Positions 10,535-58,862 of a stretch of 64,000 nt of DNA are shown one piece after another. A program made the position numbers and the translations under genes. Source of the DNA: a phage; the NCBI GenBank assembly GCA_025829515.1, contig GCA_025829515.1_4865.1. One strand, written 5' to 3'. The notes under the pieces were generated by a model. The model saw only the letters and a list, made by a program, of their open reading frames with translations. It made no database searches and had not been told where the DNA came from. The stretch's first letter is position 1. Every line of letters starts with the position of its first letter.

Positions 10535-10558
10535 CCTACCTCCCTTCGGGGAGGTAGG
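10535..10558. terminator. bidirectional terminator hairpin (CCTACCTCCC-TTCG-GGGAGGTAGG)
   Basis: 10-bp stem, TTCG tetraloop, A-run upstream and T-run downstream; between convergent genes. Confidence 0.6.
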
Positions 10559-10575: not shown

Positions 10576-11247
10576 TTACATGCCGAGTGACTCGGACAAT
10601 GTTTTTAATCCAGTGTAATCGCGCTTTTCAGCTAACTCACGGATTTGGCGTTTGTTATCTGCCATTGCTGAGTGCAACACCTGGTCACGTGCAACAATAG
10701 CGGCCAGCAACGCTTTACATTGGGCTACTGTAAACGGACTGTGCTTAGTATTCAGCGTATCGAGCCAGTATTCTGGTGCGGTATCTGCCTGAATGTATTG
10801 ACCGAGGATGGTACGCGACGATTCATCGGCTTGAAAGTGGCTACCTTCAAACTCGATATAACCATGGCGCTCATCTTCGTAGCGGTGGTCGAGTTCCAAC
10901 AGCATCTTCTGCACGTCTTCGTAAATGTAACGCGCGGTAGATTTCAGATTCCCGCGAATTTCGTCGAGGTCAATCTCCAGCACATTAGCAATAAACTCTT
11001 TCGTGCGTTTCAATGTGAAGTTAGCTTCAATCTCCGACATCTCATACAGCTTCATGCGTGCCAGGGCTTCTTTATCAGACATCCCTTCGATGAGATGGTA
11101 ATGGAGTAATGCACAAAATCCGGTACGGCCCTGATCCTGCGCACCGATTCGTTCCATGAAATTACCGTGACGATCAATCGGCAAATCACGCTGGAAATAA
11201 CGGGCGCGGATCTCTTCGTTCGTTAAGCTTTTGTCAGTAACAGACAT
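10576..11247 (-). CDS. hypothetical protein, last gene of the rSAM/Cys-rich module (223 aa)
   Basis: ATG with GAGGAGG RBS; 25-nt overlap with the upstream gene suggests translational coupling. No recognisable motif. Confidence 0.5.
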   Translation of the reverse strand: MSVTDKSLTNEEIRARYFQRDLPIDRHGNFMERIGAQDQGRTGFCALLHYHLIEGMSDKEALARMKLYEMSEIEANFTLKRTKEFIANVLEIDLDEIRGNLKSTARYIYEDVQKMLLELDHRYEDERHGYIEFEGSHFQADESSRTILGQYIQADTAPEYWLDTLNTKHSPFTVAQCKALLAAIVARDQVLHSAMADNKRQIRELAEKRDYTGLKTLSESLGM

Positions 11248-11789
11248 TCGTCCTCCTCAATCAGGCCAAGTTCTAACAACAAACCGAAGTCCAGCATCTG
11301 GAAGTCCTGATCGAGGTTACCGGCCCACAACAGAGAAATGTTGTGTTGCTCTTCTTCTTCCAACTGCGGGAGCAGGTGTTCTTCGAAGATTTGACGCTCT
11401 GTGTAATAAGCGTCAACCGGGTTATTGGAGCGTAAGTTACGAATACGCATCCGCGGGAAAGACAAGCCCAAAGCCACTAAACTTTCAGGACTGGCTTCAT
11501 CAATAGAGTGACGTAGCAGTTCGATTTTGTGGCGTGGGTATGCAAGCAGTCGCTTCTCAAAGCCAGGGTTGCGCTTTTCGATTTCCGCGACAGACTCGTG
11601 TCCTTTCTCAACGCAGTAGACCGGGATCATCACGTTCAGCCCGTATTTAATCAACAGGCTTTGGATTTCATCAGTGAAGTCTTCCCCTGCCACAATTGCG
11701 TGCACATTGTACAGCTTGCTTTTGCGCAGGAAGCGATCGACCAAGTGCAGTTTACGCTTCGTAAAATTGTGAATCAGTATTGACTTCAT
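11223..11789 (-). CDS. hypothetical protein in rSAM module (about 189 aa from ATG 11789)
   Basis: Start chosen at the internal ATG with ACGGAG RBS; the track start at 11867 would overlap the rSAM gene by about 116 nt. Confidence 0.4.
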   Translation of the reverse strand: MKSILIHNFTKRKLHLVDRFLRKSKLYNVHAIVAGEDFTDEIQSLLIKYGLNVMIPVYCVEKGHESVAEIEKRNPGFEKRLLAYPRHKIELLRHSIDEASPESLVALGLSFPRMRIRNLRSNNPVDAYYTERQIFEEHLLPQLEEEEQHNISLLWAGNLDQDFQMLDFGLLLELGLIEEDECLLLTKA

Positions 11790-13080
11790 TCTGGGCTCCG
11801 TTTTGTAATTTTTCTGCTTCGGCACGTTGGCGTACACAACGTGAACAATAGCACATGGATTTATCATGCAAATCTGATGCGCGAGTCGTACCAGTTTTCT
11901 GATACCAATATTCCGCCGCCATCAGCTTCGCAGTAGTCCAACCACACTGACGACGCTCGGCGTGATACGCTTTACGGTCTTCCAGTGTACCTTCACCGTT
12001 TTCGTACGATGCTGCTGCGCAGCTACCGCAGCTGTGTTTCATCGGACACCCTAAACAGGTTTCTGGGTAGTTGGTGTACTGCGTTTGAATCTCTTCTAAC
12101 AGCTTACCGCCGTCCAGGCTCACAAACTCACGACCAACCAGTTCCGCTACAGCAGAGCGGGAAGTTACCGTGGACATGAAACGGTTACAACCGTAAATCT
12201 TGCGATCAAAGCCGAGACAGGTCATGTGCGTCAACGTACCGCAGTACGGTTTCAGGCGTTCTGGGTCGAGACGAACAGAGTCGTCATGTAAGAGTTTGTC
12301 ACGCCAATCCGGGTCCCAAGTTGCCATAAAGTTCAGGCCATCCGGGATGATGTGTGTAATCGTGTTACGCGGGTTGGTGTGCAGACCCTTCTCAATCCAG
12401 TAGTCCATCACGTCCATCATCTGGTTCGCGATATCCAACGCCATATGGCGCGGCAGGATATCTTCGTACGTTACGTTACCAGAGATGGTACCACCGCCGG
12501 ACATGTCAATTAACGATTTCATGCTGGCGGCATAGTGCGGCAATGTATCGATCGTAAACGTCGCCTTTACGCCCAGCTCAGCGATGCCAACACTCTTCAG
12601 ATAATTGTAACCGCGTACCGCAGCTTCGTACGACCCTTCACGCGTCGTGGTAAAGATACGATATTTGTCATGGACTTCAGGTAAACCATCGATGGAGACC
12701 CCAATAGACAGTTTGTCTTTCCAGCGCTCGATAATTTCTTTGTTCAGCGGACGGTCCAGAAGCGTACCGTTCGTGGAGATACTGAACATATACGGGCGAT
12801 TGTGTTCTGCGCATAACTTCTCTGCGGTTTCAAAGGCCGCCAAAAGAAGTTTAGGCTGCATGAACGGCTCACCACCGATGATATCGATGATGACTTCAAC
12901 GTTCGGGATATCTTTATCACGCTCGAAACAAGCGTGGATAAAATCAATCACGTCTGCTACTTTGTTGTTACGCGGATATTTACGCTCGTAGCAGTATTCG
13001 CAGTCCAGGTTACATGACAGGTTAGTCACAACCTGATACGTGCGTGGTGTGTACTGGATTTGCTGTTCGCTATTACTCAT
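11752..13080 (-). CDS. radical SAM enzyme with Cys-rich C-terminal SPASM-like domain (442 aa), putative peptide/protein maturase
   Basis: N-terminal CNLDCEYCY (CxxxCxxC radical-SAM cluster motif); C-terminal Cys cluster (CLGCPMKHSCGSCAA...CGW...CYCSRC) typical of SPASM auxiliary Fe-S domains (anSME / sacti- / ranthipeptide maturase type). Confidence 0.7.
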   Translation of the reverse strand: MSNSEQQIQYTPRTYQVVTNLSCNLDCEYCYERKYPRNNKVADVIDFIHACFERDKDIPNVEVIIDIIGGEPFMQPKLLLAAFETAEKLCAEHNRPYMFSISTNGTLLDRPLNKEIIERWKDKLSIGVSIDGLPEVHDKYRIFTTTREGSYEAAVRGYNYLKSVGIAELGVKATFTIDTLPHYAASMKSLIDMSGGGTISGNVTYEDILPRHMALDIANQMMDVMDYWIEKGLHTNPRNTITHIIPDGLNFMATWDPDWRDKLLHDDSVRLDPERLKPYCGTLTHMTCLGFDRKIYGCNRFMSTVTSRSAVAELVGREFVSLDGGKLLEEIQTQYTNYPETCLGCPMKHSCGSCAAASYENGEGTLEDRKAYHAERRQCGWTTAKLMAAEYWYQKTGTTRASDLHDKSMCYCSRCVRQRAEAEKLQNGAQNEVNTDSQFYEA

Positions 13081-13987
13081 TGTTCGCCGCCCGTTTACGC
13101 TTAGCAGAAATTACACGGTTGATGTAGTTATACGCATCAACGCCGATAGAACGCGCCAGGCGATTACAGCCGACTTCCAATATCTCTGGGGCGTTCTGAA
13201 TTTGCTCCTGCGTACCGTCGGCGTTAAGCCACAGCACTTCACTGCACGTGTTGCACTCGGTATCGAACATTTTACTGATCGCAAGCCCACATTCAGAATC
13301 GTTCTGCATGTTAAGGCGTTCGATATTGTCGAGTATTTTCCAATACCCGTACATGAAGTTCATGACGTGGTCTGGCGATAACGGTTTCGGCATCATCGCA
13401 TCAAACAACAACGACACACCACCTGGACGGTAATGATAGATTGCTCGGTGCAGCTCGATGAAATCTTCGTACCAGCGTTTATCACCTAACTGGTCACGCG
13501 TCATCACACCCCAGGTGTAATAGTTGTCCAGCTCGTACAGCACTTCCAGCGCTTCGTGATTACCACCGTTTACAAAGTTCATAAACGGACGTTCCGACTT
13601 CTTGTAGCCGTCAATGGACACAAAGATAAGGTCGAACTGTTTCAGCAACGGCAGATGTGACTTACGCATCTTTAAACCGTTGGTGTACATGTGATGACGG
13701 AGGTTCGGATGAGACTCCTTCAACTCGTTCACGAAGTCTTCAATCTTACGCTGCGCTAACAGCGGCTCACCGCCCGTCCAATGAATCTCACCGATATCCG
13801 GATTCTTCTCTAAAATAGAGAGAATCTCTTCACGTTGAAACTCACGAGAAGTATCTTCTCTATCCATGTAATAAGCCCCTCCACAGAAGCTACAGTCTAA
13901 GTTACACTTAGAAGTTGCGACAACCGACAGAATTGACGGTTTGTCGTACAGTTCAGACGAGATCCTGGATTCTACTTGATCTGTCAT
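13073..13987 (-). CDS. radical SAM enzyme (second maturase-like, about 304 aa from ATG 13987)
   Basis: SKCNLDCSFCGG (CxxxCxxC) near the N-terminus; C-terminal ECGLAIS...ECNTCSE...GCN partial auxiliary-cluster (twitch-like) pattern. The track TTG start at 14023 is an alternative. Confidence 0.65.
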   Translation of the reverse strand: MTDQVESRISSELYDKPSILSVVATSKCNLDCSFCGGAYYMDREDTSREFQREEILSILEKNPDIGEIHWTGGEPLLAQRKIEDFVNELKESHPNLRHHMYTNGLKMRKSHLPLLKQFDLIFVSIDGYKKSERPFMNFVNGGNHEALEVLYELDNYYTWGVMTRDQLGDKRWYEDFIELHRAIYHYRPGGVSLLFDAMMPKPLSPDHVMNFMYGYWKILDNIERLNMQNDSECGLAISKMFDTECNTCSEVLWLNADGTQEQIQNAPEILEVGCNRLARSIGVDAYNYINRVISAKRKRAANNE

Positions 13988-14009
13988 TGCAGGTTGCTCC
14001 AGTATATTT

Positions 14010-14897
14010 TTAAATATAATCAATGGCGAATAAAGGATCTTCGTCTACATTAGCGCCGGGCACCAGTAACATCGGGTCGTGATAGGCAGCTAAAATTTTG
14101 TTCAGGTCGGCGTGTCTTTCGTTCAGGCGTTTCAAATCGGCCAACGTTACCGAACGACCACGAATCTCAGAAACAGCTTCTGCTTCTTCTTTCGTTAAAT
14201 CCACCTTCGTTAAGAGGAAACTTACCAGCTTACTCAAATCCGCTTCCGTCGCCGGATAATCCCCATATCGGGTTTGAACCAGATGTTGCATCCACGGTTT
14301 ACGAATACGTTTGGTGATTTCAAAATCGTCAGTCAACGCATACCAGACAGAACGCTTTTTATCCCACACGAACTTATAGCTATACGCCATCATGTCCGCT
14401 AAACGGGTGATGCCAAGTTCTTTATACCCCTCGATATCGATGTATGGTTCGGTGTCGAAATACGTTTCCGTATCGGCAGGTACCAGTACAAAGTAGTAAG
14501 GGAACGAGCCCAGATAGTCCGGACTCCACCAACGGCGCGCCATCGGTTTTGCTTCAAGTTCGTCAAACGGTGTAAACATCAGTTCTAAATCGACGCTGTT
14601 GTTCAAAATCCCTTCACTGAAGAAATACTTACCGTCGACTAACACGCCACGAGAGTTACCATCGCCGTTAAAGATAACGATGGCCTCTGCAACCATATCA
14701 CGGATCTTAAACGTATTTTCTACGGTGTAGTTCTTCTTGTCGGTCAAGAAGCGACCACGAACCTTTGGCCACTCACCAGGAATCTGTGCAATCAGTCTGA
14801 CTTTGTCAGCAAGGTGCGCACGCACTGAATCTGGGGAAGATAGATGCAGCGGGTGGTTGAATGTGGTTTTATACGCAAGATGCAAATCGTTTTTCAT
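14010..14897 (-). CDS. hypothetical protein between Cys-rich genes and rSAM genes (295 aa)
   Basis: ATG with GGAG RBS; no recognisable motif; candidate leader-recognition or accessory protein by position only. Confidence 0.5.
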   Translation of the reverse strand: MKNDLHLAYKTTFNHPLHLSSPDSVRAHLADKVRLIAQIPGEWPKVRGRFLTDKKNYTVENTFKIRDMVAEAIVIFNGDGNSRGVLVDGKYFFSEGILNNSVDLELMFTPFDELEAKPMARRWWSPDYLGSFPYYFVLVPADTETYFDTEPYIDIEGYKELGITRLADMMAYSYKFVWDKKRSVWYALTDDFEITKRIRKPWMQHLVQTRYGDYPATEADLSKLVSFLLTKVDLTKEEAEAVSEIRGRSVTLADLKRLNERHADLNKILAAYHDPMLLVPGANVDEDPLFAIDYI

Positions 14898-14919
14898 TTA
14901 ATACTCCGAACGTTTTCTG

Positions 14920-15126
14920 TTATCGATTCCCCGCTCCACGGCTACAGCTTCCGCTGCAGGACCAGCTACACCCACCATTACAGTTATAGTGAGAAAGCGG
15001 TAAGCCAGCCAGGTTATTTGTGGTCGACACGGTGCCCTGGTTAGCGATATAGTTGTTTGCCTGTGCGGTTGTAATGTAACCTTCTGCCGTAACGAGACGG
15101 TTTCGAATAGTCTTGAGACTGATCAC
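14920..15126 (-). CDS. Cys-rich precursor-like small protein 3 (68 aa)
   Basis: GTG start with GGAGG RBS. N-terminal region (ISLKTIRNRL...ANNYI) is paralogous to the N-termini of ORFs 15142 and 15557; short C-terminal core HYNCNGGCSWSCSGSCS. Confidence 0.5.
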   Translation of the reverse strand: MISLKTIRNRLVTAEGYITTAQANNYIANQGTVSTTNNLAGLPLSHYNCNGGCSWSCSGSCSRGAGNR

Positions 15127-15141
15127 ATAAGCCTCCGTCAG

Positions 15142-15546
15142 TTAGGAGTTAGGACCTGAACAACCACCAGAGCACGCACCTGAGCAGTTTGCGGAGCAGG
15201 ATTTACCACAACCCCCAGAACAGCTGCCTGTGCACGTGCCGCTACAACCACCAGAGCACGAAGAGCTACAGCCCGTGCAGCTGCTGCTACAGCCTGATAC
15301 ACAGTTTGCCGAGCAAGTCGACCCACAACCACCTGTCGCGGACCCTGTGCAGCCGCCAGAGCAACTTGAGCAGCTAAAAGAGCATGTCCCACCACAGTCA
15401 TAGTGCGAACGGCCTTGACCTGCGAACAAGTCGGCGTTATTCGTAGCTTTATTGCGAATGTAGTTTTGCACATTCGTGGTGTTCTTTAAAGCGTTTGCAT
15501 CGATCGTGTTTAATCGGTTATTCAGTTCTTTTAATCCAATTGCCAT
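15142..15546 (-). CDS. Cys-rich precursor-like protein 2 (134 aa), (C-x-x-x)n Ser/Gly/Thr core
   Basis: ATG with AAGGGGG RBS. Leader-like N-terminal ~50 aa, then HYDCGGTCSFSCSS... with about 20 Cys, mostly one every fourth residue. Confidence 0.55.
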   Translation of the reverse strand: MAIGLKELNNRLNTIDANALKNTTNVQNYIRNKATNNADLFAGQGRSHYDCGGTCSFSCSSCSGGCTGSATGGCGSTCSANCVSGCSSSCTGCSSSCSGGCSGTCTGSCSGGCGKSCSANCSGACSGGCSGPNS

Positions 15547-15556
15547 TTAATCCCCC

Positions 15557-15949
15557 TTAGCGACCTGAACAGCCGCCGGAGCAGGCCCCGGAACAACTGG
15601 AAGAACATGAGCCACCGCAACCACCAGTGCAGTTACCGGTACAGCTACTACTGCAACCACCAGAACAACCAGAGCAACCAGAACAGTTACCGCCACACGT
15701 CGAAGAACAGCTACCGATGCAAGAAGCAGAACAGCTTCCTGAACAGCTCGAACAACCGTGAGAACAGCCATTCGAACACGTCCAAGAACATGTCCCGCCG
15801 CAATCTAGCTGTGCTTTCGTCCAACCCCCAAATCGGTCTGCCGCATTATGGGCTTTAGAGGCCACTTGCGCGTCGATGCGGGGGCCTGTCGCCATGTTAG
15901 CTTCGACTATCTGGACGCGGTTTCTGACGTCTTTAATAGATATCGCCAT
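15557..15949 (-). CDS. Cys-rich precursor-like protein 1 (130 aa), (C-x-x-x)n Ser/Gly/Thr core
   Basis: ATG with AAGGAAG RBS. Leader-like N-terminus (IKDVRNRVQIVEAN...), then QLDCGGTCSWTCSNGCSHGCSSCSGSC... with about 21 Cys. Confidence 0.55.
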   Translation of the reverse strand: MAISIKDVRNRVQIVEANMATGPRIDAQVASKAHNAADRFGGWTKAQLDCGGTCSWTCSNGCSHGCSSCSGSCSASCIGSCSSTCGGNCSGCSGCSGGCSSSCTGNCTGGCGGSCSSSCSGACSGGCSGR

Positions 15950-15970
15950 TACGCTTCCTTAAAAAGTAGA

Positions 15971-16007
15971 ACGAGCGGACTATGTCCATAAACATAGTCC
16001 GGCTCGT
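15971..16007 (-). promoter_or_regulatory. intergenic stem-loop upstream of the Cys-rich genes (attenuator / processing-site candidate)
   Basis: CGGACTATG / CATAGTCCG 9-bp stem, extended by ACGAG/CTCGT; on the minus strand it is followed by CTTTTT and then the RBS of gene 15949. Confidence 0.4.
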
Positions 16008-16014
16008 AAACAAA

Positions 16015-17217
16015 TTACTTAGTACCCGCTTCAGCTTGAACATCGTCGCGCGTGGTGAGGTTGTTGTTGACGTGAACAGCAGCCTGCACAACACCTCCAT
16101 ACTGTTTATGGAGGTAATTCGGGTGTGGGTTATCCGCAGCCGCATGGTTCGCCAGATTCTGGTTTGCCTGCGAAATTGCGTTGGTGTTGTTTATAACCTG
16201 AGTTTTAAGACTGTTGATTTGTCCTTGCAGGTTATCAATTTGCTGTTGGAAGTCCTTGCCCTGATTCTCAAGATCCGTGACGCGCTGATTTGTTTCATTC
16301 AGTGCAGACTGCAGATCGTTAACCATCTTCTGTAATTGCAACACCAGAGAATTAAGGTTAGCTAATGCTAACGACATTTTCTGGTAATTTTGAGCAACCA
16401 CATTAAGCTGGTCGTTCCACGCGGCTAACGAAGCCACAATTGCATCGATGCGTTTCCCCAACGCCGTGTCTGCTGCTCTTAAGTCGCCGATATCGTTGAT
16501 AGTGGCGTCAATGGCAGTCTGTACACTTTGAATCAGGGCACGAATCTCCGTCTCCGTCAGGCCATTAACCTGATGAATGTCGAGATTGTGTACGTTACCT
16601 TCGGCGTTGATGTGTGTATTTAAGGCGTCGAGGAAGTCGTTTCTCAGACCGTCCAGAATACCTTTAATTTCTTCCAGCTGTACTGCAGAGCCGGAGTTAA
16701 TCGCATCTTTAATCCCCGCGAGTACGGTAATGATATACTCAAAACCGTAGATATCGCCAAGGTCTTTATACGTCGGGGCGGACGGGAACGTATCGGGTAC
16801 GTTTCGAAGATCCTTGAAGTCCACCACACGGTCTTCAATTTTCAACGACGCAATCGCTTGTCGGATACCTTCGACGTTCGCGGACTGAAAACCACCAACG
16901 ACTTGCGCAGAGACTTCGATATCAGTAGGAATGGCCGAGTTAGTTACCACCACACCCATGACCACTTCGCGGTTCTTGGTCATTTTCTGATATGCAGTAT
17001 GTGCAAAAATCAGTTCGTAGTCTGTGCCGCGTTTGTACGGGTAGACACCTGGTTTATTCGCAGCTGCCAAGCGGAAGGTATCCGCGTAGAAAGCTCCGTC
17101 AGGAAAAGCAAAAGCCCGGTTAACTTTACCAGAACCTAACGTAATACGCCGTGTAACGGCGTTCGACGTTAATGTCCCGGTAAGGTCGAGCGGGTACTGA
17201 TGAATGATTTCGGCCAT
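16015..17217 (-). CDS. putative short tail fiber with coiled-coil shaft (about 400 aa)
   Basis: Start chosen at ATG 17217 (AAAGGAG RBS). N-terminal FYADTFRL...GTDYELIF block shared with the three giant fibre proteins; long heptad-like region (LQLQKMVNDLQSALNETNQRVTDLENQ...). Confidence 0.55.
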   Translation of the reverse strand: MAEIIHQYPLDLTGTLTSNAVTRRITLGSGKVNRAFAFPDGAFYADTFRLAAANKPGVYPYKRGTDYELIFAHTAYQKMTKNREVVMGVVVTNSAIPTDIEVSAQVVGGFQSANVEGIRQAIASLKIEDRVVDFKDLRNVPDTFPSAPTYKDLGDIYGFEYIITVLAGIKDAINSGSAVQLEEIKGILDGLRNDFLDALNTHINAEGNVHNLDIHQVNGLTETEIRALIQSVQTAIDATINDIGDLRAADTALGKRIDAIVASLAAWNDQLNVVAQNYQKMSLALANLNSLVLQLQKMVNDLQSALNETNQRVTDLENQGKDFQQQIDNLQGQINSLKTQVINNTNAISQANQNLANHAAADNPHPNYLHKQYGGVVQAAVHVNNNLTTRDDVQAEAGTK

Positions 17218-17264
17218 TGCCAAACTCCTTTGATTGGGGCTTCCTTGCCCCATAGCGCTATCTG

Positions 17265-20200
17265 TTAGGTACGGAACATAAGATTGACCTGGATAATATC
17301 AGGCTGTTGACGTCCTCTCTCGTTCACCCAATCGTGCGCAATCGTTAACGTAAGATCATCGCCATCCCACGCCACGATCGGTGGTGGGAATAAACCCTGA
17401 GCGCCCGTGGTAACAACCGGGATTGCACCCGTCACATTCGTAAACGTGTAGCTACGACTGTTCAGAACAACTGGTGTGCCGTTGGTCTCTCCCGGCTGTG
17501 GTAAGATTTGAATCTTACTATCCGAAAGATCGGTGGTGATTGGTAGACCCCCAGCGTCCGTGAAAAGCCAAGAGCAAATATGCTGGTTAGCTGTTTCGAG
17601 CGCTGAAGAACTTACCGCCGCGACAAATGTAAAGGTGCACGGCACGCCTGCTGGCAGAGAGTGCTGTTTGTGGTGCACGGTATGTGGTGACGGCAATAAC
17701 ACTTCTGGATTTTCATCAATGTTAACATCCGTACCTTCCGCCTCGACGTTGTAGAAAAAGCCATCCACCGCCTCCCATGGGGCAACGTGAACATTAAAGG
17801 TCGTTTCTACTCCCGGTGTACCTGGGACGACGAATTTACTTTGCACCACCACCATCAAGTTCGTTGAGGTCGGTGAGAAAGCGGGCGTTGGAATACCTAC
17901 CCACTCCATGCCCAACGATGTCGCTTCACTGTTCTCATCGGCCGTTACCGTCGCAATTGTTGTAGGATGTTTCCAAAACGCCCCCGACTTGTTTGCCTGA
18001 GTAAACGCCGGCAAAGTTTTCAAGCCTTCGAAACGTTTGGACACCATCGCTTTACCGCGACGCTGTGCGTCAGATACGGTATAAAGCAACTGACTATCCA
18101 GATAGCCTTTCGTAGCATCGATCGACAAAGGACCCATCGCTTCTTTACGCAATGGTGCCAGTCTGCCCGTTGCTGCATCCCTTCCCACCTCCACATCATG
18201 CTTATTCTCAACCGCCGCATGTTCCAACAGTTGTTTCACCGCCCCTAATCGCTTAGCATGTTCGACGTTAGTCTCGACGACTCGCGACGAGCCCGTTTTA
18301 ACATACCCGATATAGAGTTCCGTTTCAGTGTCTGGATGTTGAATCACGTCCATTACGTACTTCGGTGTACCATTTTCTACCTTGGCGTGCAGGTAGAATG
18401 TCCGGTTCTGATGGTTTGTTGGAAATGCTGCGCTGAGGTCAATATACCACGTAGGCAGTTTATAAGTGCTCGAGCCGAAACGCAGGTTAACTTCCTCAGT
18501 CACATATACCAGCCAACCTTCGGCTGTTTCCACACCAGCAATGACAACCGATTCAGTCGGGCCACTAAAATTAGGAGCCGCGACAAAATCACTCGACGAC
18601 ATTGCGATACCACCACAATAGACGTAGTCGAGAGATGAGTTGTGTAGCATCACCTGATCACGATGAGCCAGATAAGCTGGGCTGACTGGGGTGTGGGATG
18701 GTGCCATACGTCCAATGCCGTGTGGAGCAGAAGAACGCGTCCAGGTACCGTTAGACAGCGTAAGACCAACACCGTAGTTAAGCGCACCCAAGTCGCCAAT
18801 TTGGCGCAAGGTTAACGTGTGTGGAAGATACAACCCGAACTGAGTACCATCTACTGACACCAGTGTAGGTTGTCCCGGCCGGCGTGTTTTTCCTCCCGTT
18901 ATCTCGCCCAACGTAGCATAACTCAAGCCATAGTCGAGGTTGTTATAGAAGTCAAACAGTGCCAATATCGCTGCGGGGAATGTTACCTGCCCGTTGCTGA
19001 TCGTTGGTTTCAGTGTAAAGTAGTAGATATCCAACACATTAACATTGTTCACAGTACGCATACATGCTACTTGTGCTAACGTGAGCGGTGTGGCCGTACC
19101 AATGCCGATGAACCAAATGGAGAACAGTGCCTTTCCGGCGTTATTTGCGGCAAGGATAAATTCCGAAGCATAACCATTCGCAGCGCCAGCCGGTGCACCG
19201 TCGATGATCATCTGCTTCATCTTATCCCATTCGGCTTGTGACAGCGTCAACCGATCGGCATGAATCGTGAAAGTGCCAGAAACGTTGTGGTAAGGGAATG
19301 TTTCTGGTCCTGTGCAATACCAGCCGTTTAACTCTGTACCAGGCGACGCCGGTGTAACAATGTGGCACATCTGCGACAGATTCTCGTACGTGGTAGAATC
19401 TACTACACGACGATTGTTAGTTGGGCCATACCCCGCCTTACCTGAGTAAGTGGTGTTCGGATCAAACTCAACTTCAATTGCCAAACGGGTACGCGGCTGT
19501 GACAACCAGATAAGTCTGGAATTCGCTCCCAGAGTCAGCGGATACGCCATACCTAGCTCGTAGATAGAACCACGACCTTGGTTTAACATTACCGCACTAA
19601 AACTTCTGGCAGTGAAGTTGTAGTCGCACGACAGGTACTCGTACCAACTCACACCGTCGTCTAACGTTGTAATCGTGACATAAGGCATTAGGTCGCGATC
19701 GTTTGCATGTCCTTGCGAAACGATATACTTGTCTTGCGATGTTGCAAAGGTTCGGTTATTAGCTTGACCTTCGCCCCACTTCCGGCTCGGAATCCCAATC
19801 TCAGCGCCACCGTTATAACGAACCGTGGTAAGATCGGCCACGATAGGGAATCGATCGGCACCTTCCAGCGTTACCGTCATTGAACCGCAATCAACAACAA
19901 AGCTTGACACCCATTGTTTAAAGTTAATAGTTTGCCCTGTAGTAGAAGCAAACCAGACTGTTGGCGTTAAACCAACACGAAAGTTCAGCCCATCCACAGC
20001 AATCGCGTGATTACATTCCGGACCATGGACGAAATTTCGCGCACTATTCCACTTCGCCGATGCGTCTGCGTAGATTTGTGTTACTGGCGCTACCAACACA
20101 TCTGTATCAGAACGTTTCTGACCCTGACGCAAGTAGATATTATCTCCCGACGTTAACATCCCACCTGTTAACACATCCGCCACAAACGTGTTGCTACCAC

Positions 20201-22448
20201 CCAGATTAAGTTCGTTGAGTGCGATGCTACGCATACTCACGAAATAGTCACCGGAGGTAAGCACAGTACGGAGCAGATAAACCCGCTCGTTGCAAACGAT
20301 CAAATCGTTTGTTGATGGATCAGCAACCCATGGAGCGGTTGTAATCACACCGGCCGCGTTACCATTTCGGTAATCGCCCAACTGAACTTTAACAACACGA
20401 TGATGTTTTGCATGGTCAATGGTTCCGTCAAAGATGACCAGGTAGTACGCACCGTCACTGCCTAAGCAGATCATTGCATCTGTACCGGTAATCACAATAG
20501 CAACCAGATTCACCCCAGGATACGCCGACATTCCAGCGGGGTGATAACGTACGGACGTCTGCTGCATATTTTCCAGCGTATTGCTTGGCGACACATCAGC
20601 ATAGGCGTAATAGATAGCCCAGTCACCTGGTGGATTCCCGTTAGAACCGTTACGGAGCGAGTAAACCTTACCAGACTCGTAACGCGCCAAACCTTTCTGC
20701 CAGGTTTGGTTTTTGGTATACCCTTCGTAGTTCCCCTGGACAGGTATAGGCAAGAAGTTATTGTTGCCGTACGATGATCCGCCGACAGTCCATGCGGGCA
20801 ACAGCGTAGCAATCTTGTCATTCAGTGTGTCAATCTTTTGTTCAAGCAAGAAGCCCTGACGCGAAGTGACCATCTTATCCGAGGTAGTGTCGATTGCATC
20901 CCACAGTTTAGCCAAACCTGTAACAGACGTGGATGCGTACGGCACGTTATCGAGATCTGCAATGGTGTGGGTGTGCGTTGTAAGCGCTTTGCCTGATAGC
21001 ACGGTGCGCAACGCATTAGTAACCGGTTTCTCCAGCGGCCCGGTATTGTTCATCTTCTCAATACCGAAATCTGCCGCGGTTAAGGTCAGATGCATCTGCC
21101 CGTTTGAATCTAATACAAACCCTTTACCATTGACTGTATACGTGTCGTCCACATATCCGTCGAGTTTGTTCTTCAAGTCAGTAACAGCTTTTTGGGAAAT
21201 CGCTGTGGACGCCGCAGCGGACGCCGAAAGGTTAGTAATCGCAAACAAACCCTGCACAGTTGTGGTTGCTGCAGGCAGCTCCGCATTCATGTAAACTTTG
21301 TTTGTTTCTTTACCAGAGCCGTAAATCTTCAACGTGTCGCTGGACTTGAAGTAGGCGTTTGCTGGAAGTATCTTCACCGAGGTCAAGTACATCTTAACCA
21401 TATCCGGTGTAACGAGATACACGCTGTTATACACAGGTGCAAGCACACCTGCATCATAAGCGCCCCACTTGTCACCTGCTTTACCCGAGTGAACCCAAAG
21501 CGTGTTCAGACCAGCACTGAACTCCGTAGCGATACCCGGTTCGTTGTTATCCTGGTCAGCTTTTAATACCAGCGGTTTTGTCGAGGTGATAATGAACTTC
21601 TCACCCTTCATGCTGATAACGTGACCAGACGTTGTTTGGAACGTAATCGCGTCGTTATTCAGAACACGCATACGGCCCAGTAAATCGCCCAGGGTATTAT
21701 CCAGAAGCATGTCAACGTGTTTCTGTTGGATGCCACTGGTAGACATTAACGTCACTAACTCTGCCAGTGTACGTCCAAACGCTTTAGTCGCATCCACGGC
21801 CTTACCGAGCACAGGGAGTGCGCCAATGTCACCGCAGGTGTAACCATGTGCATTTTTAATCAGGTGGTGTTGATACATTTCGTCATCAAACACCTGTTTA
21901 CCGTTCTGATAAATCAAATCGGTAACTTCGGCAAATGCCTCATCCAGTTCGTGGGCGCGCTCTAAAATGCCCAGACGGATATCTTCCAACGCCTTTACGA
22001 TTTCATCGCGAAGAATCGCTTCTTCGAGATCTTTTGGCGGGTCGATTGGCGAGATAATCGGTGGATATTTCATCAGCTCAGACCAATCGCAGTTGCGCGG
22101 GTCTTTCATATCCGTCTTAACCAGATACTTGCCGATTTCAGAAGCAGGGATGCGATACTGTCGACCAACCGACAACAACTCGTATTCTACCTCTGTGGCG
22201 TTCAGCAGCATTATGCTGCCGTATATTGCATCGTTCTCAGCCTCGGCTAATTCCTGGAAGTAATGTCCTAAGAAATAATCAAGACCTTCTATTAACTTGC
22301 GTTTGGTTCCGGTTGTTTTATCGGTAACGGTTAACGTTAACCCGATGCGATAGAACGGTGCTTCGACGGGAATGACCGTCGAATAACGGTTCGGGTAAGT
22401 AGCGGTACTGAGGGTACCGTTAAACTGCGCCGCATCTTCTCTCGGCAT
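17265..22448 (-). CDS. giant tail fiber / tailspike protein (about 1727 aa)
   Basis: Start chosen at ATG 22448 (AGGAGTG RBS; the track start is TTG at 22493). N-terminal APFYRIGLTLTV...GLDYFL anchor-like block shared with ORFs 22544, 26687 and 16015. Confidence 0.55.
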   Translation of the reverse strand: MPREDAAQFNGTLSTATYPNRYSTVIPVEAPFYRIGLTLTVTDKTTGTKRKLIEGLDYFLGHYFQELAEAENDAIYGSIMLLNATEVEYELLSVGRQYRIPASEIGKYLVKTDMKDPRNCDWSELMKYPPIISPIDPPKDLEEAILRDEIVKALEDIRLGILERAHELDEAFAEVTDLIYQNGKQVFDDEMYQHHLIKNAHGYTCGDIGALPVLGKAVDATKAFGRTLAELVTLMSTSGIQQKHVDMLLDNTLGDLLGRMRVLNNDAITFQTTSGHVISMKGEKFIITSTKPLVLKADQDNNEPGIATEFSAGLNTLWVHSGKAGDKWGAYDAGVLAPVYNSVYLVTPDMVKMYLTSVKILPANAYFKSSDTLKIYGSGKETNKVYMNAELPAATTTVQGLFAITNLSASAAASTAISQKAVTDLKNKLDGYVDDTYTVNGKGFVLDSNGQMHLTLTAADFGIEKMNNTGPLEKPVTNALRTVLSGKALTTHTHTIADLDNVPYASTSVTGLAKLWDAIDTTSDKMVTSRQGFLLEQKIDTLNDKIATLLPAWTVGGSSYGNNNFLPIPVQGNYEGYTKNQTWQKGLARYESGKVYSLRNGSNGNPPGDWAIYYAYADVSPSNTLENMQQTSVRYHPAGMSAYPGVNLVAIVITGTDAMICLGSDGAYYLVIFDGTIDHAKHHRVVKVQLGDYRNGNAAGVITTAPWVADPSTNDLIVCNERVYLLRTVLTSGDYFVSMRSIALNELNLGGSNTFVADVLTGGMLTSGDNIYLRQGQKRSDTDVLVAPVTQIYADASAKWNSARNFVHGPECNHAIAVDGLNFRVGLTPTVWFASTTGQTINFKQWVSSFVVDCGSMTVTLEGADRFPIVADLTTVRYNGGAEIGIPSRKWGEGQANNRTFATSQDKYIVSQGHANDRDLMPYVTITTLDDGVSWYEYLSCDYNFTARSFSAVMLNQGRGSIYELGMAYPLTLGANSRLIWLSQPRTRLAIEVEFDPNTTYSGKAGYGPTNNRRVVDSTTYENLSQMCHIVTPASPGTELNGWYCTGPETFPYHNVSGTFTIHADRLTLSQAEWDKMKQMIIDGAPAGAANGYASEFILAANNAGKALFSIWFIGIGTATPLTLAQVACMRTVNNVNVLDIYYFTLKPTISNGQVTFPAAILALFDFYNNLDYGLSYATLGEITGGKTRRPGQPTLVSVDGTQFGLYLPHTLTLRQIGDLGALNYGVGLTLSNGTWTRSSAPHGIGRMAPSHTPVSPAYLAHRDQVMLHNSSLDYVYCGGIAMSSSDFVAAPNFSGPTESVVIAGVETAEGWLVYVTEEVNLRFGSSTYKLPTWYIDLSAAFPTNHQNRTFYLHAKVENGTPKYVMDVIQHPDTETELYIGYVKTGSSRVVETNVEHAKRLGAVKQLLEHAAVENKHDVEVGRDAATGRLAPLRKEAMGPLSIDATKGYLDSQLLYTVSDAQRRGKAMVSKRFEGLKTLPAFTQANKSGAFWKHPTTIATVTADENSEATSLGMEWVGIPTPAFSPTSTNLMVVVQSKFVVPGTPGVETTFNVHVAPWEAVDGFFYNVEAEGTDVNIDENPEVLLPSPHTVHHKQHSLPAGVPCTFTFVAAVSSSALETANQHICSWLFTDAGGLPITTDLSDSKIQILPQPGETNGTPVVLNSRSYTFTNVTGAIPVVTTGAQGLFPPPIVAWDGDDLTLTIAHDWVNERGRQQPDIIQVNLMFRT

Positions 22449-22481
22449 TGCAAACACTCCTAATCTGTAATAAAACGGAGA

Positions 22482-22542
22482 CCGCCCTCCCAATAACGGA
22501 AGGGCGGTTTACCTACGGACTACCCGCCCGTAGGCAGTCCGT
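22482..22542 (-). promoter_or_regulatory. paired intergenic hairpins between the fibre genes (partial terminator / RNA processing candidate)
   Basis: CCGCCCT...AGGGCGG and ACGGACT...AGTCCGT stems (with alternative CCTACGG/CCGTAGG pairing); in the minus sense they are followed by a U-rich tract just before the RBS of gene 22448. Confidence 0.35.
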
Positions 22543-29600: not shown

Positions 29601-30400
29601 CGTTGCTTCAACTGAAGACGCAGGATACTTGTCCCACCGTTTGCGTAACAGAGCATCCAATCGATCAACTCGCCTGGGTTCAACGTTGTTTCCGGTGGAA
29701 TGCTCGGTAAACGGTATTTTGCCGCTAACGAATACGCACCGAACGTCGTGTTCTGGTAAGATAACGAATAACGACGACGCGACGCGTTATACGTGTAGCC
29801 GCCAGTACCGTCGTACGTCGCATACTGCTCGGATGTGATAAGCGTGACACCGGCGCGATATTGAAGGTCTAACGTGTTACGAGCAATCGGGTCAACGCGA
29901 CTGATCGCTTCACCGAGCTTAGCACCAACCGCAACAATGGCTTCCATCAACTCGGATTCGCCACGCCAGTTTTCCCAGTCGAACTTAATATCGACCGGTG
30001 GGAAATATAAATCCCCAATGACGTTATCCCATTGGCAGTCTACGGGATAGCGATCTTTATTCGCTTCTCGTTCTGCGGCGATCATTTCTGCAGTGGCTTC
30101 ACCGATGCCAATTGCGTGGTAATCGAGTGTAAAGCCACTCTGATATTTCGGGTTGGTAATCCACACACCGCCGTGACAAACATGGCCAGTGCGTGCCATG
30201 CCCGTAACGTATGCATGGGTGATGACGTAATCATCACCTAATGTTAATTTCTTGCCGCCACTCTTGACCACCAGGGATGTGGTATAAAAGGGGGCGTGTG
30301 CGGGGAACAGCATCCGGTACTTAGTACCGATCGGCGTTACCGCTTCACCGGTCTGCATATTCCCCGGTTCTTGATAGTGCGGGTCAGGGACGACAGCCAT
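26687..30400 (-). CDS. giant tail fiber / tailspike protein (1237 aa), first gene of the minus-strand structural operon
   Basis: ATG with GGAGTG RBS; N-terminal APFYTTSLVV...GDDYVITHAY anchor-like block. Confidence 0.55.
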   Translation of the reverse strand: MAVVPDPHYQEPGNMQTGEAVTPIGTKYRMLFPAHAPFYTTSLVVKSGGKKLTLGDDYVITHAYVTGMARTGHVCHGGVWITNPKYQSGFTLDYHAIGIGEATAEMIAAEREANKDRYPVDCQWDNVIGDLYFPPVDIKFDWENWRGESELMEAIVAVGAKLGEAISRVDPIARNTLDLQYRAGVTLITSEQYATYDGTGGYTYNASRRRYSLSYQNTTFGAYSLAAKYRLPSIPPETTLNPGELIDWMLCYANGGTSILRLQLKQRAIYLTLTTAIGSGSSNYSYTLTTGLTDTELAGDIELSVVRREGNGVYDITVKTSKQTVNYSFNVDNPPSEFAPGYQKTDVAKWLKFKSGVNLNWWAGENDYVQIRSLPGAPAPDVNNDVYQLLVKYHQIVDKLYRDAPAHTHVPRKDNPHRDSWGAIRALENNGIASDATLVYGKTQPQLTDYVNNLLPKLSTLANKLLRLPAAAQSINGTFGMKPGLTSITSAVGTDESEGVGAQFTVDPRVIRFIGRDSQTVNAGNNPITWQGGANQLILYPDSRGLEFNGKKLLDPTTVGPYLPGNESGGDGLFYGTSTATVTINGNGIQSVPFICTFVPPESDDLGLMAVRLLATEFGDREDLAATPALIKKLDQQFTGKLVAVKSYINDMPLTSSIYIDKTNFGLSNVQNIPDVQLPISPLQRAELDKYAVVGHTHAPAALGIKRATTTEFGLVQFGTAVDDATLALDGGEVIRQADAITEIEKVAKTVDSGASINIIRYGLPGTDTIENGITYTDWMVTIKANDYFVGREYKVPLSTFNLAELFPATHEDAEFGVYVDAAGDDGKYIIYENPNTAETETMTKIGSIITSETGVVFVEIRNVTRLGEFRELGEHIEDDNAHIRRGMTQADFGFTYGTGGPVWSTGAPGTKRIDADWRYAQASSYTPMLKADYDPAADKWTFKTTSLSVTDYRFVHNTFPMFQNNGITATWTPLTATADSVLETVIGCCHHSATFMHRISVLVARTAGRITTPGGVSTYAGIAVNYGRAAQVVIGLNGVTGSGHDWTALNPSVRFSHARTADGISFVGTINIDSKTINFELTLTATTKTLKYTLQSTGESWTEDLSTRLRPDYIDLTKLITDPSTPIYHGVGGLFSSDTEARLTYANLNTMPTKNRYYATFLDYAINYSGLNRARFFTGVVDAGSTINEMNSAMCNYSYSSFRPVDAGKIPLAAHPSKMMTFNPKNTSARTLIIRD

Positions 30401-30467
30401 TTTACACTCCTTTTCTCTGAGGGCGTCGAGTTCATACTATGACCCGAATCCTTAGAGGAAACAGCCA

Positions 30468-32000: not shown

Positions 32001-32208
32001 TTACTTATCTCCATTAACAAATGATAGCAGAAGAACCCTATGTCCAACTACTTGTACTTCGAGGCATATTAACTGCCCCGTCTCGTAAATTAGTTGACAA
32101 TAAACCGGCTTTTGTGCGAAAAAAGTGGCTAACCGTGTACAAGCGATTTGGGTTATCGTTACAGTTAGGAGGTTTATTGTCACAATATACAGCTCACACG
32201 TAATTAAA

Positions 32209-33141: not shown

Positions 33142-33321
33142 ACCACCCTCCTCTCATACTACACTTTTTTACGTTTCGATCTCATCGTTTGACAATCGAG
33201 GAGTGTACGGGGGTAAGGGGGTTTATGTATTGGATGCGAACATAAACGGAGGTATCCGTAGGATACCGACATCCTTTTTGTAGTTGACCTTGACTTTTAA
33301 CCTAACGAGGAGTGCAGTACC

Positions 33322-40543: not shown

Positions 40544-40575
40544 GGAACCCTTCGGGGTTCCATTTCTTCTTTTTT
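40544..40575 (+). terminator. rho-independent terminator (GGAACCC-TTCG-GGGTTCC, T-run)
   Basis: 7-bp stem, TTCG loop, followed by ATTTCTTCTTTTTT. Confidence 0.6.
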
Positions 40576-40628
40576 ACGCATGACCTTTTGGATATGAACG
40601 ACTAATACTTTCTCATTAGAAGGCAAAC

Positions 40629-58764: not shown

Positions 58765-58862
58765 TCTATCAACCTCGAATATATAAGGGATTGGGCTACA
58801 TAGTAAGTCTTTTACGTATCACCCAAACCTTATGTACGAGAACTGCATAAAGGTAACATCTG

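What the first reader, a model, noticed from the sequence alone, without database searches (positions are those of the whole stretch)
15971..16007. Stable hairpin placed between the fibre genes and the first Cys-rich gene
A stem of about 9-14 bp followed (in the minus sense) by a short U-tract sits in the 65-nt gap just upstream of the RBS of gene 15949. It could act as a partial terminator or attenuator, or as an RNase-processing / stabilising element setting the stoichiometry of the Cys-rich products relative to the upstream fibre genes; RiPP precursor genes are often flanked by such structures.
Basis: partly seen in the sequence, partly recalled or inferred. Interest (0 to 1): 0.4.

Follow-up and report, generated by a model that had tools for sequence, protein, structure and literature searches.

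The report
Promoter nested inside a terminator-like hairpin
The hairpin is real and conserved in related giant phages, and it most likely does two jobs: it ends or stabilises the tail-fibre messages, and it carries in its loop the start signal of a phage-polymerase promoter for the Cys-rich/radical-SAM genes.

Summary
The window comes from an SPN3US-like jumbo phage (Seoulvirus). It has 16 bp with one bulge, a UAUG loop and a folding energy of about -23 to -26 kcal/mol.

It fills the 65-nt gap between the gp167 fibre-like gene and the first CXXX-repeat Cys-rich gene. A hairpin sits at this junction in all 23 distinct versions of the gap, from isolates of five named genera plus unclassified IMG/VR contigs. 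The stem sequences differ but still pair (10 of 16 pairs carry compensatory changes).

Only three elements are invariant:
- "AC" of a TTAC box
- TATG at the hairpin apex, 15 nt after the box (16 in four sequences)
- the ribosome-binding site

TTAC-N15-TATG is also the geometry of the mapped phiKZ middle promoter P78M. In phiKZ late promoters the G of TATG is the start site. The motif is enriched here, recurs at orthologous intergenic sites, and TATG is otherwise avoided genome-wide.

My best reading is a phage-RNAP promoter nested in a hairpin. Read-through fibre RNA folds into the hairpin plus a U-rich tail, which acts as terminator or stabiliser. RNA started in the loop lacks the 5' arm and stays unstructured. 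All of this is computational, and no transcript ends are available.

The parts
16006..16014 (-). T-rich stretch ending in the TTAC box (TTAC = 16009-16006). I propose it as the upstream promoter element, with C at -19 relative to G15987.
   Evidence: 'AC' is invariant in 20 distinct relatives. TTAC-N15-TATG occurs 8 times in the window against 2.09 +/- 1.42 in shuffles. Spacer 15 gives 21 sites, against about 1-13 for the other spacers, across four genome blocks. phiKZ P78M has the same TTAC-N15-TATG geometry.
15991..16007 (-). 5' arm of the hairpin (ACGAGC-C-GGACUAUGUU). In the promoter reading it is the spacer, positions -20 to -4.
   Evidence: Folds. Covariation.
15987..15990 (-). Loop UAUG, which is an invariant TATG. 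By analogy with phiKZ, G15987 is the presumptive transcription start (+1).
   Evidence: TATG is invariant in all 23 versions even though loop size and stem sequence change. In phiKZ, TATG is required and its G is +1 (PMC4666361). TATG/CATA is the most avoided non-palindromic 4-mer in this phage group, with O/E 0.57-0.67.
15971..15986 (-). 3' arm of the hairpin (GACAUAGUCC-GCUCGU). In the promoter reading it is the initially transcribed region, +2 to +17.
   Evidence: RNA starting at G15987 has no significant structure (z = -0.35).
15961..15970 (-). U-rich tail UCUACUUUUU following the stem.
   Evidence: Sequence. It resembles the tails of this phage's other terminators, such as ...TTCTTCTTTTTT and CTTCTTATTTTTT. 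By my reading of the sequences, TTAT lies within about 12 nt of the stem in 15 of 23 relatives. The tail is absent in Derbicusvirus.
15947..15960 (-). RBS AAGGAAG (15960-15954) and start codon ATG (15949-15947) of the first CXXX-repeat Cys-rich gene (15557-15949).
   Evidence: AAGG is invariant. ORF. Weak match to TIGR04114.
16015..17217 (-). Upstream gene, the gp167 homologue ('virion structural protein 20' / 'viral fiber protein'). Its read-through RNA would form the hairpin.
10577..15949 (-). Proposed transcription unit served by the promoter: three Cys-rich ORFs, gp165, two radical-SAM genes, gp162 and gp161. It runs up to the bidirectional terminator at 10535-10558.
   Evidence: ORFs. SPN3US annotation. 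rSAM best match TIGR04115 at 3e-36, below the curated cut-off. Terminator.

Best explanation
The 65-nt gap holds a compact promoter-in-terminator module.

(1) DNA level. T-rich/TTAC (16009-16006), 15 nt, then TATG (15990-15987) is a phiKZ-type promoter of the 'middle' class for the phage's own multisubunit RNA polymerase. Transcription would start at or near G15987 and read the three CXXX-repeat Cys-rich genes, gp165 and the two radical-SAM genes.

(2) RNA level. The promoter spacer (-20..-4) and the first transcribed bases (+2..+17) are an inverted repeat. RNA arriving from the fibre genes (gp168/gp167) therefore folds into a 16-bp hairpin followed by a U-rich tail. This would terminate part of that transcription and/or protect its 3' end.

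RNA started in the loop carries only the 3' arm, cannot form the hairpin, and leaves the RBS free. The effect would be to uncouple the timing and amount of the Cys-rich/rSAM products from the fibre genes.

Shown here: the structure, its conservation and covariation, the invariant motifs and their spacing, the motif enrichment, and the identical geometry in phiKZ P78M.

Inferred: the actual start site, the polymerase involved, and any termination.
For: Origin and hairpin:
- The window is 97-99% identical to SPN3US-group phages.
- The hairpin folds at -25.7 kcal/mol, z = -3.0.
- It is present at the same junction in 23 distinct intergenic sequences. The named isolates belong to Seoulvirus, Erskinevirus, Machinavirus, Wellingtonvirus and Derbicusvirus; the rest are unclassified IMG/VR contigs.

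Covariation:
- Native arm pairs fold at a mean of -18.9 kcal/mol, against -9.9 for chimeric 5'/3' arms taken from different phages.
- On a covariance-model alignment of 19 sequences, 82.8% of cells are paired against 69.6% in shuffles.
- In that alignment 10 of 16 pairs carry changes on both sides (0 of 500 shuffles reach this).
- The covariation score is 0.377, against at most 0.094 when the partners are slid.

Invariant columns and spacing:
- The invariant columns of the region cluster in 'AC' of the box, TATG and AAGG.
- The spacing is 15 nt in most sequences and 16 nt in four (SNUABM_11, Kwan, L029, L030), by my count on the sequences.

Promoter motif:
- In phiKZ late promoters TATG is required and its G is +1. 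Middle promoters carry AAanTTACc at about -24, and some also have TATG (PMC4666361).
- phiKZ P78M reads AAAATTACC...: TTAC, 15 nt, TATG.
- The motif occurs 8 times in the window against 2.09 +/- 1.42 expected.
- Spacer 15 gives 21 sites across four blocks, while other spacers give 1-13.
- TTAC-N15/16-TATG is conserved in 3 of 4 genera at the orthologous gaps upstream of the SMC-like gene and upstream of a small DUF1471 gene, while the spacers diverge.
- A further site lies in a divergent gap with no terminator upstream.
- TATG/CATA is the most under-represented non-palindromic tetramer in all four blocks, with O/E 0.57-0.67.

RNA-level role:
- Sense RNA is more stable than antisense in 20 of 23 versions, by a mean of 3.75 kcal/mol, through G.U pairs.
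- The tail resembles this phage's other terminator tails.
- Read-through RNA folds at -30.6 kcal/mol (z = -4.5). RNA from G15987 is unstructured (z = -0.35).
Against: - No 5'- or 3'-end data for SPN3US or its relatives were found. The start site and any termination are inferences.
- Purified phiKZ nvRNAP did not transcribe P78M-type promoters efficiently in vitro, and the enzyme form that uses them is unknown (PMC4666361).
- Two of the 8 motif matches in the window (9840 and 44826) have TATG overlapping a start codon, with an RBS in the spacer. The enrichment is therefore partly inflated.
- In Asesino and Derbicusvirus the box is AAAC or TAAC rather than TTAC.
- The other TTAC-N15-TATG sites and P78M show little or no pairing across the start, apart from a modest stem at the DUF1471 site (-12.1 kcal/mol). 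The hairpin is not part of the promoter class.
- The U-run is separated from the stem by UCUAC. The tail is missing in Derbicusvirus, which nevertheless keeps the hairpin.
- The covariation counts come from an alignment fitted to the model, and the model did not retrieve the three Derbicusvirus sequences.
- Most of the G.U pairs involve the conserved GG after TAT, so they are not independent events.
Confidence: 0.5

Rival explanations
1. It is only an RNA element: an intrinsic (partial) terminator or attenuator, or a 3'-end stabilising hairpin, for the fibre-gene transcript. The Cys-rich genes are then expressed by read-through, and the TTAC and TATG conservation is incidental.
For: - The stem covaries.
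- There is a sense-strand G.U bias.
- The T-rich tail resembles the phage's own terminator tails.
- phiKZ terminators are stem-loops followed by a TTAT region (PMC10914365).
- Another small covarying hairpin lies between gp168 and gp167, so intercistronic hairpins are common in this operon.
Against: - Apart from the RBS, the invariant bases are the loop TATG and the upstream AC, not the stem or the tail.
- TATG is retained although the predicted loop varies from 3 to 6 nt, which argues for sequence-specific recognition rather than loop geometry.
- The spacing to the box is fixed and equals that of phiKZ P78M.
- The T-tail is absent in Derbicusvirus.
- TATG is otherwise avoided in these genomes.
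Confidence: 0.2
2. It is a structure-dependent promoter or operator acting at the DNA level. The inverted repeat either extrudes as a cruciform that presents the non-template TATG single-stranded to the phage RNAP, or it is the binding site of a dimeric regulator. The RNA hairpin is then a by-product.
For: - TATG always sits at the apex.
- phiKZ nvRNAP binds the non-template TATG in single-stranded form. The additional specificity determinants are unknown and are suggested to be ease of strand separation (PMC12809450).
- Derbicusvirus keeps the hairpin without a T-tail.
- Both DNA strands fold well, with z = -7.3 and -8.3.
- It is the strongest TATG-apex hairpin in three of the four genome blocks.
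Against: - TATG-apex hairpins are not a general feature: 179 per 1000 TATG sites against 109-152 for control tetramers.
- Sense RNA is more stable than antisense through G.U pairs, which would be A.C mismatches on the other DNA strand.
- Bulges and mismatches disfavour cruciform extrusion.
- In my judgement, stem sequences that differ this freely between genera are unusual for a protein operator.
Confidence: 0.15
3. It is a processing site, such as an RNase III-type cleavage site, that separates the fibre and Cys-rich parts of one long mRNA and sets their different stabilities.
For: It is a long (16 bp) bulged stem in an intercistronic gap of a long operon. To my knowledge, T7-like phages use such sites.
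Against: This does not explain the invariant TATG and AC or their spacing. Stem length ranges from 9 to 17 bp among relatives, which is short for RNase III. Nothing was found in Rfam.
Confidence: 0.08
4. The loop ATG starts a small upstream ORF, and the hairpin regulates its translation.
For: An ORF of 8-18 codons opens at the loop ATG in the sequences I translated by hand (sequences). In some relatives a GAGG or AGGAGG lies about 10 nt upstream.
Against: By my own reading of those sequences:
- The peptides are unrelated.
- The reading frame relative to the main ATG changes (distance mod 3 is 1 in most sequences and 0 in ChrisDB).
- No Shine-Dalgarno sequence is present in the window or in Wellingtonvirus.
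- The ATG would be sequestered in or next to the stem.
Confidence: 0.02

Closest known systems
phiKZ middle promoter P78M (AAAATTACC box plus TATG; Ceyssens 2014, Yakunina 2015, PMC4666361)
   Same: Both have an AT-rich stretch ending in TTAC, exactly 15 nt, then TATG. Both lie in an intergenic gap directly upstream of a gene. Both phages are jumbo phages that encode phiKZ-type multisubunit RNAP subunits (one search lists an 'RNA polymerase beta subunit' in this window's region).
   Different: In P78M the spacer and initial transcribed region do not pair (-1.6 kcal/mol). Here they form a 16-bp hairpin with TATG as the loop. The start site here is not mapped. The upstream 'AAan' part is T-rich here (TTTG).
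phiKZ / 201phi2-1 intrinsic terminators (stem-loop followed by a TTAT region; PMC10914365, PMC11512511)
   Same: It is a stable stem-loop downstream of a gene, followed by a T-rich tail. TTAT occurs in the tail of 15 of 23 relatives. Other terminators in this window fit the phiKZ type, for example CCTACCTCCC-TTCG-GGGAGGTAGG at 10535-10558.
   Different: - It has no CCYCCCC/GGGRRGG arms.
- The stem is longer, bulged and A/U-rich in its inner part.
- The loop carries TATG.
- The U-run starts 5 nt after the stem.
- The tail is absent in one genus.
Hairpin promoters of phage N4 virion RNA polymerase (from my own knowledge)
   Same: It is a phage-polymerase promoter associated with a DNA inverted repeat.
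   Different: N4 uses a single-subunit RNAP, a 5-7 bp stem with a 3-nt loop located upstream of the start, and needs supercoiling plus SSB. Here the start would lie inside the loop, the polymerase is multisubunit, and other promoters of the class lack the repeat.
Attenuator hairpins in RiPP operons, between precursor and modification genes (for example lantibiotic clusters; from my own knowledge)
   Same: It is a hairpin in a precursor-plus-radical-SAM cluster that could set the relative amounts of the products.
   Different: It lies upstream of the first precursor-like gene, not between precursors and maturases. The 22-nt gap after the last Cys-rich gene shows no obvious hairpin by eye (not folded).

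Membership tests
phiKZ-type middle/late promoter of the jumbo-phage multisubunit RNAP | TATG motif whose G is the start site | tested here: met
   The motif is present at 15990-15987 and is invariant in 23 versions. Its use as a start site is not shown.
phiKZ-type middle/late promoter of the jumbo-phage multisubunit RNAP | AAanTTACc box about 24 nt upstream, at the spacing seen in P78M | tested here: met
   TTAC lies at 16009-16006 and is followed by 15 nt before TATG, identical to P78M. 'AC' is invariant. The TT is replaced by AA or TA in two clades.
phiKZ-type middle/late promoter of the jumbo-phage multisubunit RNAP | Primary (triphosphate) 5' end at the G, with transcription by the phage RNAP | not testable with these tools
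   No transcriptome for this phage group was found in the library.
phiKZ-type middle/late promoter of the jumbo-phage multisubunit RNAP | The motif recurs at other intergenic sites of the genome and is conserved there | tested here: met
   Enrichment is 8 against 2.09 expected. There is a spike at spacer 15. Orthologous sites are conserved upstream of the SMC-like and DUF1471 genes. TATG is avoided elsewhere.
Intrinsic (factor-independent) terminator | Stable G+C-rich stem-loop | tested here: met
   The stem has 16 bp and folds at -23 to -25.7 kcal/mol, with a G+C-rich outer part.
Intrinsic (factor-independent) terminator | Uninterrupted U-tract directly after the stem | tested here: inconclusive
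   The tail is UCUACUUUUU. Five of the first 8 bases are U, but the run starts 5 nt after the stem. The site is not listed by the consensus scan. The tail is T-rich in most relatives and absent in Derbicusvirus.
Intrinsic (factor-independent) terminator | RNA 3' ends at the tail | not testable with these tools
   No term-seq or ONT data are available.
phiKZ conserved terminator motif (BCCYCCCC-HWWD-GGGRRGGB-YTTATKYYGT) | CCYCCCC / GGGRRGG arms | tested here: not met
   The arms are ACGAGCCGGACUAUGUU / GACAUAGUCCGCUCGU. Other hairpins in the window do fit the motif.
RiPP-operon attenuator | Hairpin located between the precursor gene(s) and the modification genes | tested here: not met
   The hairpin is upstream of the first Cys-rich gene. 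The gap 14898-14919 between the last Cys-rich gene and gp165 is 22 nt and shows no obvious hairpin by eye (not folded).
Any Rfam family | Match at the gathering score | tested here: not met
   There are no matches in the whole window. Only chance-level hits (E 0.65-5) occur around the site.

The most novel reading that the evidence does not exclude
The hairpin is itself part of promoter recognition. The inverted repeat extrudes, or simply lowers the cost of opening, so that the non-template TATG is offered single-stranded to the beta-lobe pocket of the phage multisubunit RNAP. That would make it a structure-assisted promoter, functionally like N4 hairpin promoters but for a multisubunit enzyme. 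The same sequence would serve as the terminator of the upstream operon. It would also give a concrete example of the unknown 'extra determinant' that makes some TATG sites promoters.
Probability: 0.1. Interest if true: 0.8.

Novelty: new variant of a known kind. Interest (0 to 1): 0.4.

Why it matters
[quoted passage not shown] What makes a TATG a promoter is also described as an open question (PMC7598289, PMC12809450).

Comparison of five genera here gives four things:
- a conserved TTAC-N15-TATG architecture, identical in geometry to a mapped phiKZ promoter
- genome-wide avoidance of TATG
- a case in which the presumptive start site sits in the loop of a covarying hairpin
- a likely separate transcription unit for an unannotated CXXX-repeat / radical-SAM module next to the tail-fibre genes

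The architecture offers a testable way to predict promoters in SPN3US-like phages. The hairpin case is a natural construct for asking whether local structure helps promoter choice. The operon boundary is useful to anyone studying that module.

If only the ordinary reading holds, this is a routine intercistronic regulatory hairpin.

Tried and rejected
- A MAFFT alignment of the 20 intergenic sequences, passed to RNAalifold, gave no consensus structure. Bulges and insertions shift the register between clades. I replaced it with a chimeric-arm energy test and a covariance-model alignment. The model did not retrieve the three Derbicusvirus sequences, and the first run picked up three reverse-strand hits that had to be excluded.
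- I tested whether TATG-in-a-loop hairpins are a general feature of the genome. They are not. Only two perfect examples exist in the window, and the second, at 51834-51855, lies inside a gene. With a relaxed, constrained fold the rate is barely above control tetramers.
- The upstream-ORF reading of the loop ATG was rejected. The peptide, the frame and a Shine-Dalgarno sequence are all not conserved (my own reading of the sequences).
- Rfam gave nothing.
- A literature search for SPN3US or Seoulvirus transcriptomes or promoter maps found nothing. Ceyssens 2014 (PMC4178840) is not held. The phiKZ promoter table of PMC10914365 is not held. I therefore read P78M directly from the phiKZ genome.
- Vibrio phage pVa-21, the next most distant gp167 relative at 29% identity, has no annotated Cys-rich or rSAM genes at the junction, so it was not used.

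Full report
**What the window is**

The region 14800-17300 is 97-99% identical to Salmonella phage SPN3US and about 35 close relatives (genus Seoulvirus, 240-kb jumbo phages). On the minus strand the order is:
- gp168, a 1742-aa giant fibre-like protein, ORF 17265-22493 (annotated start 22448)
- gp167, 16015-17217, annotated 'virion structural protein 20' or 'viral fiber protein'
- a 65-nt gap
- three Cys-rich ORFs: 15557-15949, 15142-15546 and 14920-15126
- gp165
- two radical-SAM genes

. The larger rSAM protein matches best the 'CXXX-repeat target' maturase family TIGR04115 (3e-36, below the curated cut-off). Two Cys-rich ORFs touch the CXXX-repeat target model TIGR04114 just under its cut-off. 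The Cys-rich ORFs are unannotated in SPN3US. Its 'gp166' is the same DNA read in another frame.

**Checking the observation**

On the minus strand, A16007..T15971 read ACGAGC-C-GGACUAUGUU-[UAUG]-GACAUAGUCC-GCUCGU. That is 6 + 10 bp with a one-C bulge and a four-base loop.
- RNA folding of an 86-nt context gives -25.7 kcal/mol, z = -3.0.
- The 48-nt core folded with DNA parameters gives z = -7.3 on the minus strand and -8.3 on the plus strand.
- The tail is UCUACUUUUU, followed by the RBS AAGGAAG and the ATG at 15949.
- The built-in terminator scan does not list the site, in my reading because that scan allows no bulge.

The coordinates and the description are therefore right. The stem is somewhat longer than stated.

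**Conservation**

I collected the same junction (stop codon of the gp167 homologue to the start of the first Cys-rich gene) from GenBank phages and from IMG/VR contigs. This gave 23 distinct sequences. The named isolates belong to Seoulvirus, Erskinevirus, Machinavirus, Wellingtonvirus and Derbicusvirus. Their gp167 identity to the window falls as low as 46%.

Every one has a hairpin at this place, and the stem sequences differ between clades. Examples are GGACUAUGUU/GACAUAGUCC, GAGGACCUGUC/GGCAG-GUCCUC, CGGGCCUCGUC/GGCGAG-GCCCG and GGGCG..ACUC/GAGU.CGCCC.

Three tests show that the arms co-evolve:
- Native 5' and 3' arms fold at a mean of -18.9 kcal/mol. Chimeras that combine arms from different phages fold at -9.9.
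- A covariance model built from five sequences aligned 19 of them. On that alignment 82.8% of cells pair (shuffles 69.6 +/- 1.4). Ten of 16 pairs carry changes on both sides (shuffles 5.2). The covariation score is 0.377, against 0.184 in shuffles and at most 0.094 with slid partners.
- Close relatives show single compensatory exchanges by inspection of the sequences. One example is GGGCG/CGCCC against GGGUG/CACCC in Derbicusvirus.

Two caveats apply. The alignment is fitted to the model, and the Derbicusvirus sequences were not retrieved by it.

**What is invariant**

In the MAFFT alignment of 20 distinct sequences, the invariant columns cluster in three elements: 'AC' at the end of a T/A-rich box (TTAC in most), TATG at the hairpin apex, and AAGG of the RBS.

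TATG is kept although the predicted loop varies from 3 to 6 nt between phages. By my count on the sequences, the distance from the box to TATG is 15 nt in most sequences and 16 nt in four (SNUABM_11, Kwan, L029, L030).

This pattern points to recognition of sequence at fixed spacing, which is what a promoter looks like, rather than to a loop of a given shape.

**Link to known promoters**

- In phiKZ, late promoters consist of 5'-TATG-3' whose G is the start site. All four bases are required in vitro.
- phiKZ middle promoters carry 5'-AAanTTACc-3' centred near -24, and two of them (P62M, P78M) also have a correctly placed TATG (PMC4666361).
- The phiKZ polymerase binds the non-template TATG under the beta-lobe. 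What else defines a promoter is unknown (PMC12809450).
- I read P78M from the phiKZ genome. It is GTGTAAAATTACC AAATGTGTTAAATA TATG, that is TTAC, 15 nt, TATG. This is the same geometry as here.

**Is the motif used elsewhere in this phage group?**

- TTAC-N15-TATG occurs 8 times in the window, against 2.09 +/- 1.42 in dinucleotide shuffles (0 of 100 shuffles reach 8).
- Summed over the window and 50-kb syntenic blocks of Asesino, Huxley and EarlPhillipIV, spacer 15 gives 21 sites. Spacers 6-30 otherwise give 1-13.
- Upstream of the SMC-like gene (window 40574-40596) and of a small DUF1471 gene (about window 32065), TTAC-N15/16-TATG is kept in three of four genera while the spacer diverges.
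- A further site at 58812-58834 lies in a divergent gap.
- TATG/CATA is the most under-represented non-palindromic tetranucleotide in all four blocks (O/E 0.57-0.67; only GATC and CTAG are lower). This is as expected if stray TATG is harmful.

One caveat is that two of the eight window matches (9840 and 44826) have TATG overlapping a start codon, with an RBS in the spacer. Not every match is a promoter.

**Is the hairpin also an RNA element?**

- The sense-strand RNA hairpin is more stable than the antisense one in 20 of 23 versions, by a mean of 3.75 kcal/mol, because of G.U pairs. Many of these involve the conserved GG after TAT.
- This phage's other terminators are G+C-rich stems followed by tails such as AUUUCUUCUUUUUU or CUUCUUAUUUUUU, often running into a TTAC box. 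The tail here, UUCUACUUUUU, fits that style.
- By my reading of the sequences, 15 of 23 relatives have TTAT in the tail. phiKZ terminators also have a TTAT region after the stem (PMC10914365).
- The usual layout in this phage is [terminator][T-tail/TTAC]-N15-TATG. Here no hairpin precedes the box, because the gp167 stop codon abuts it. Instead the hairpin arms flank the TATG.
- RNA arriving from gp167 therefore folds (95-nt context: -30.6 kcal/mol, z = -4.5). RNA begun at G15987 has only the 3' arm and no significant structure (z = -0.35).
- Against a pure terminator reading, the Derbicusvirus relatives keep the hairpin and TATG but have no T-tail.

**Is the hairpin a general part of such promoters?**

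No. P78M, the SMC-gene site and the 58834 site show little or no pairing across the start; only the DUF1471 site has a modest stem (-12.1 kcal/mol). TATG-apex hairpins are barely more frequent than for control tetramers. This one is, however, the strongest such hairpin in three of the four blocks, and the covariance model finds it only once in the window.

**Conclusion**

The most likely account (about 0.5) is a nested module. A phiKZ-type promoter for the Cys-rich/rSAM operon has a spacer and initial transcribed region that double as the terminator or stabiliser hairpin of the fibre transcripts.

The rivals are:
- an RNA-only terminator or attenuator (0.2)
- a DNA-level structure-assisted promoter or operator (0.15)
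- a processing site (0.08)
- an upstream ORF (0.02)

Nothing here is experimental. Mapping of 5' and 3' RNA ends would settle it.

Noticed in passing
window 14920-15949 (-): Three ORFs share a conserved N-terminal region (MAISxK...R...) followed by long C-x-x-x repeats (CSGGCSGTCTGSC...). They are unannotated in SPN3US, where 'gp166' (window 15138-15473) is the same DNA in another frame. Several relatives annotate spurious plus-strand ORFs here instead. Two of the ORFs score just under the TIGR04114 (CXXX-repeat rSAM target) cut-off.
   Followed up: partly
window 11752-14023 (-): There are two radical-SAM genes. The 442-aa SPASM-type protein matches best TIGR04115, 'radical SAM peptide maturase, CXXX-repeat target family' (3e-36, 125.6 bits against a cut-off of 350). 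A phage-borne CXXX-repeat modification system therefore sits next to the tail-fibre genes, and it is conserved in at least five genera.
   Followed up: partly
window 17236-17251 (-): A second small intercistronic hairpin, GGGGC-AAGGAA-GCCCC, lies between gp168 and gp167. In relatives it has different but still pairing stems (GGGGC/GCCCC in Asesino, GAGAC/GUCUC in Huxley, a longer one in EarlPhillipIV). It has no T-tail. In the window a TATG abuts it, but that TATG is not conserved.
   Followed up: partly
window 30400-30468 (both strands): In the divergent gap between the 3.7-kb structural gene and the gene at 30468, the palindrome TCATA-G-TATGA places a TATG on each strand. It is conserved in all four genera compared and looks like a pair of back-to-back TATG promoters without a TTAC box.
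   Followed up: partly
window 40574-40596 (+), 58812-58834 (+), about 32065-32088 (-): These are further intergenic TTAC-N15/16-TATG sites. They lie upstream of the SMC-like gene, of a 99-aa ORF in a divergent gap, and of a small DUF1471 gene. The first and third are conserved across genera and usually follow a terminator directly.
   Followed up: partly
whole window and loci L037-L039: Tetranucleotide avoidance under a second-order Markov model is strong: GATC has O/E 0.17-0.40, CTAG 0.13-0.52 and TATG/CATA 0.57-0.67. The two palindromes suggest avoidance of restriction or methylation sites.
   Followed up: no
window about 33150-33180 (-), upstream of the baseplate gene 32209-33141: A conserved ACGTAAAAAAG, a few bases, then TATG lies just upstream of the RBS in all four genera. 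It is possibly another promoter class.
   Followed up: no
window 10535-10558: A perfect 10-bp hairpin, CCTACCTCCC-TTCG-GGGAGGTAGG, has T-rich tails on both strands. It is a bidirectional terminator of the phiKZ CCYCCCC type and probably marks the end of the operon that starts at the hairpin studied here.
   Followed up: no
window 51834-51855 (+): This is the only other perfect TATG-in-loop hairpin in the window (8-bp stem, CCCACCAG-TTTATG-CTGGTGGG). It lies inside a 159-aa ORF and has no T-tail.
   Followed up: no
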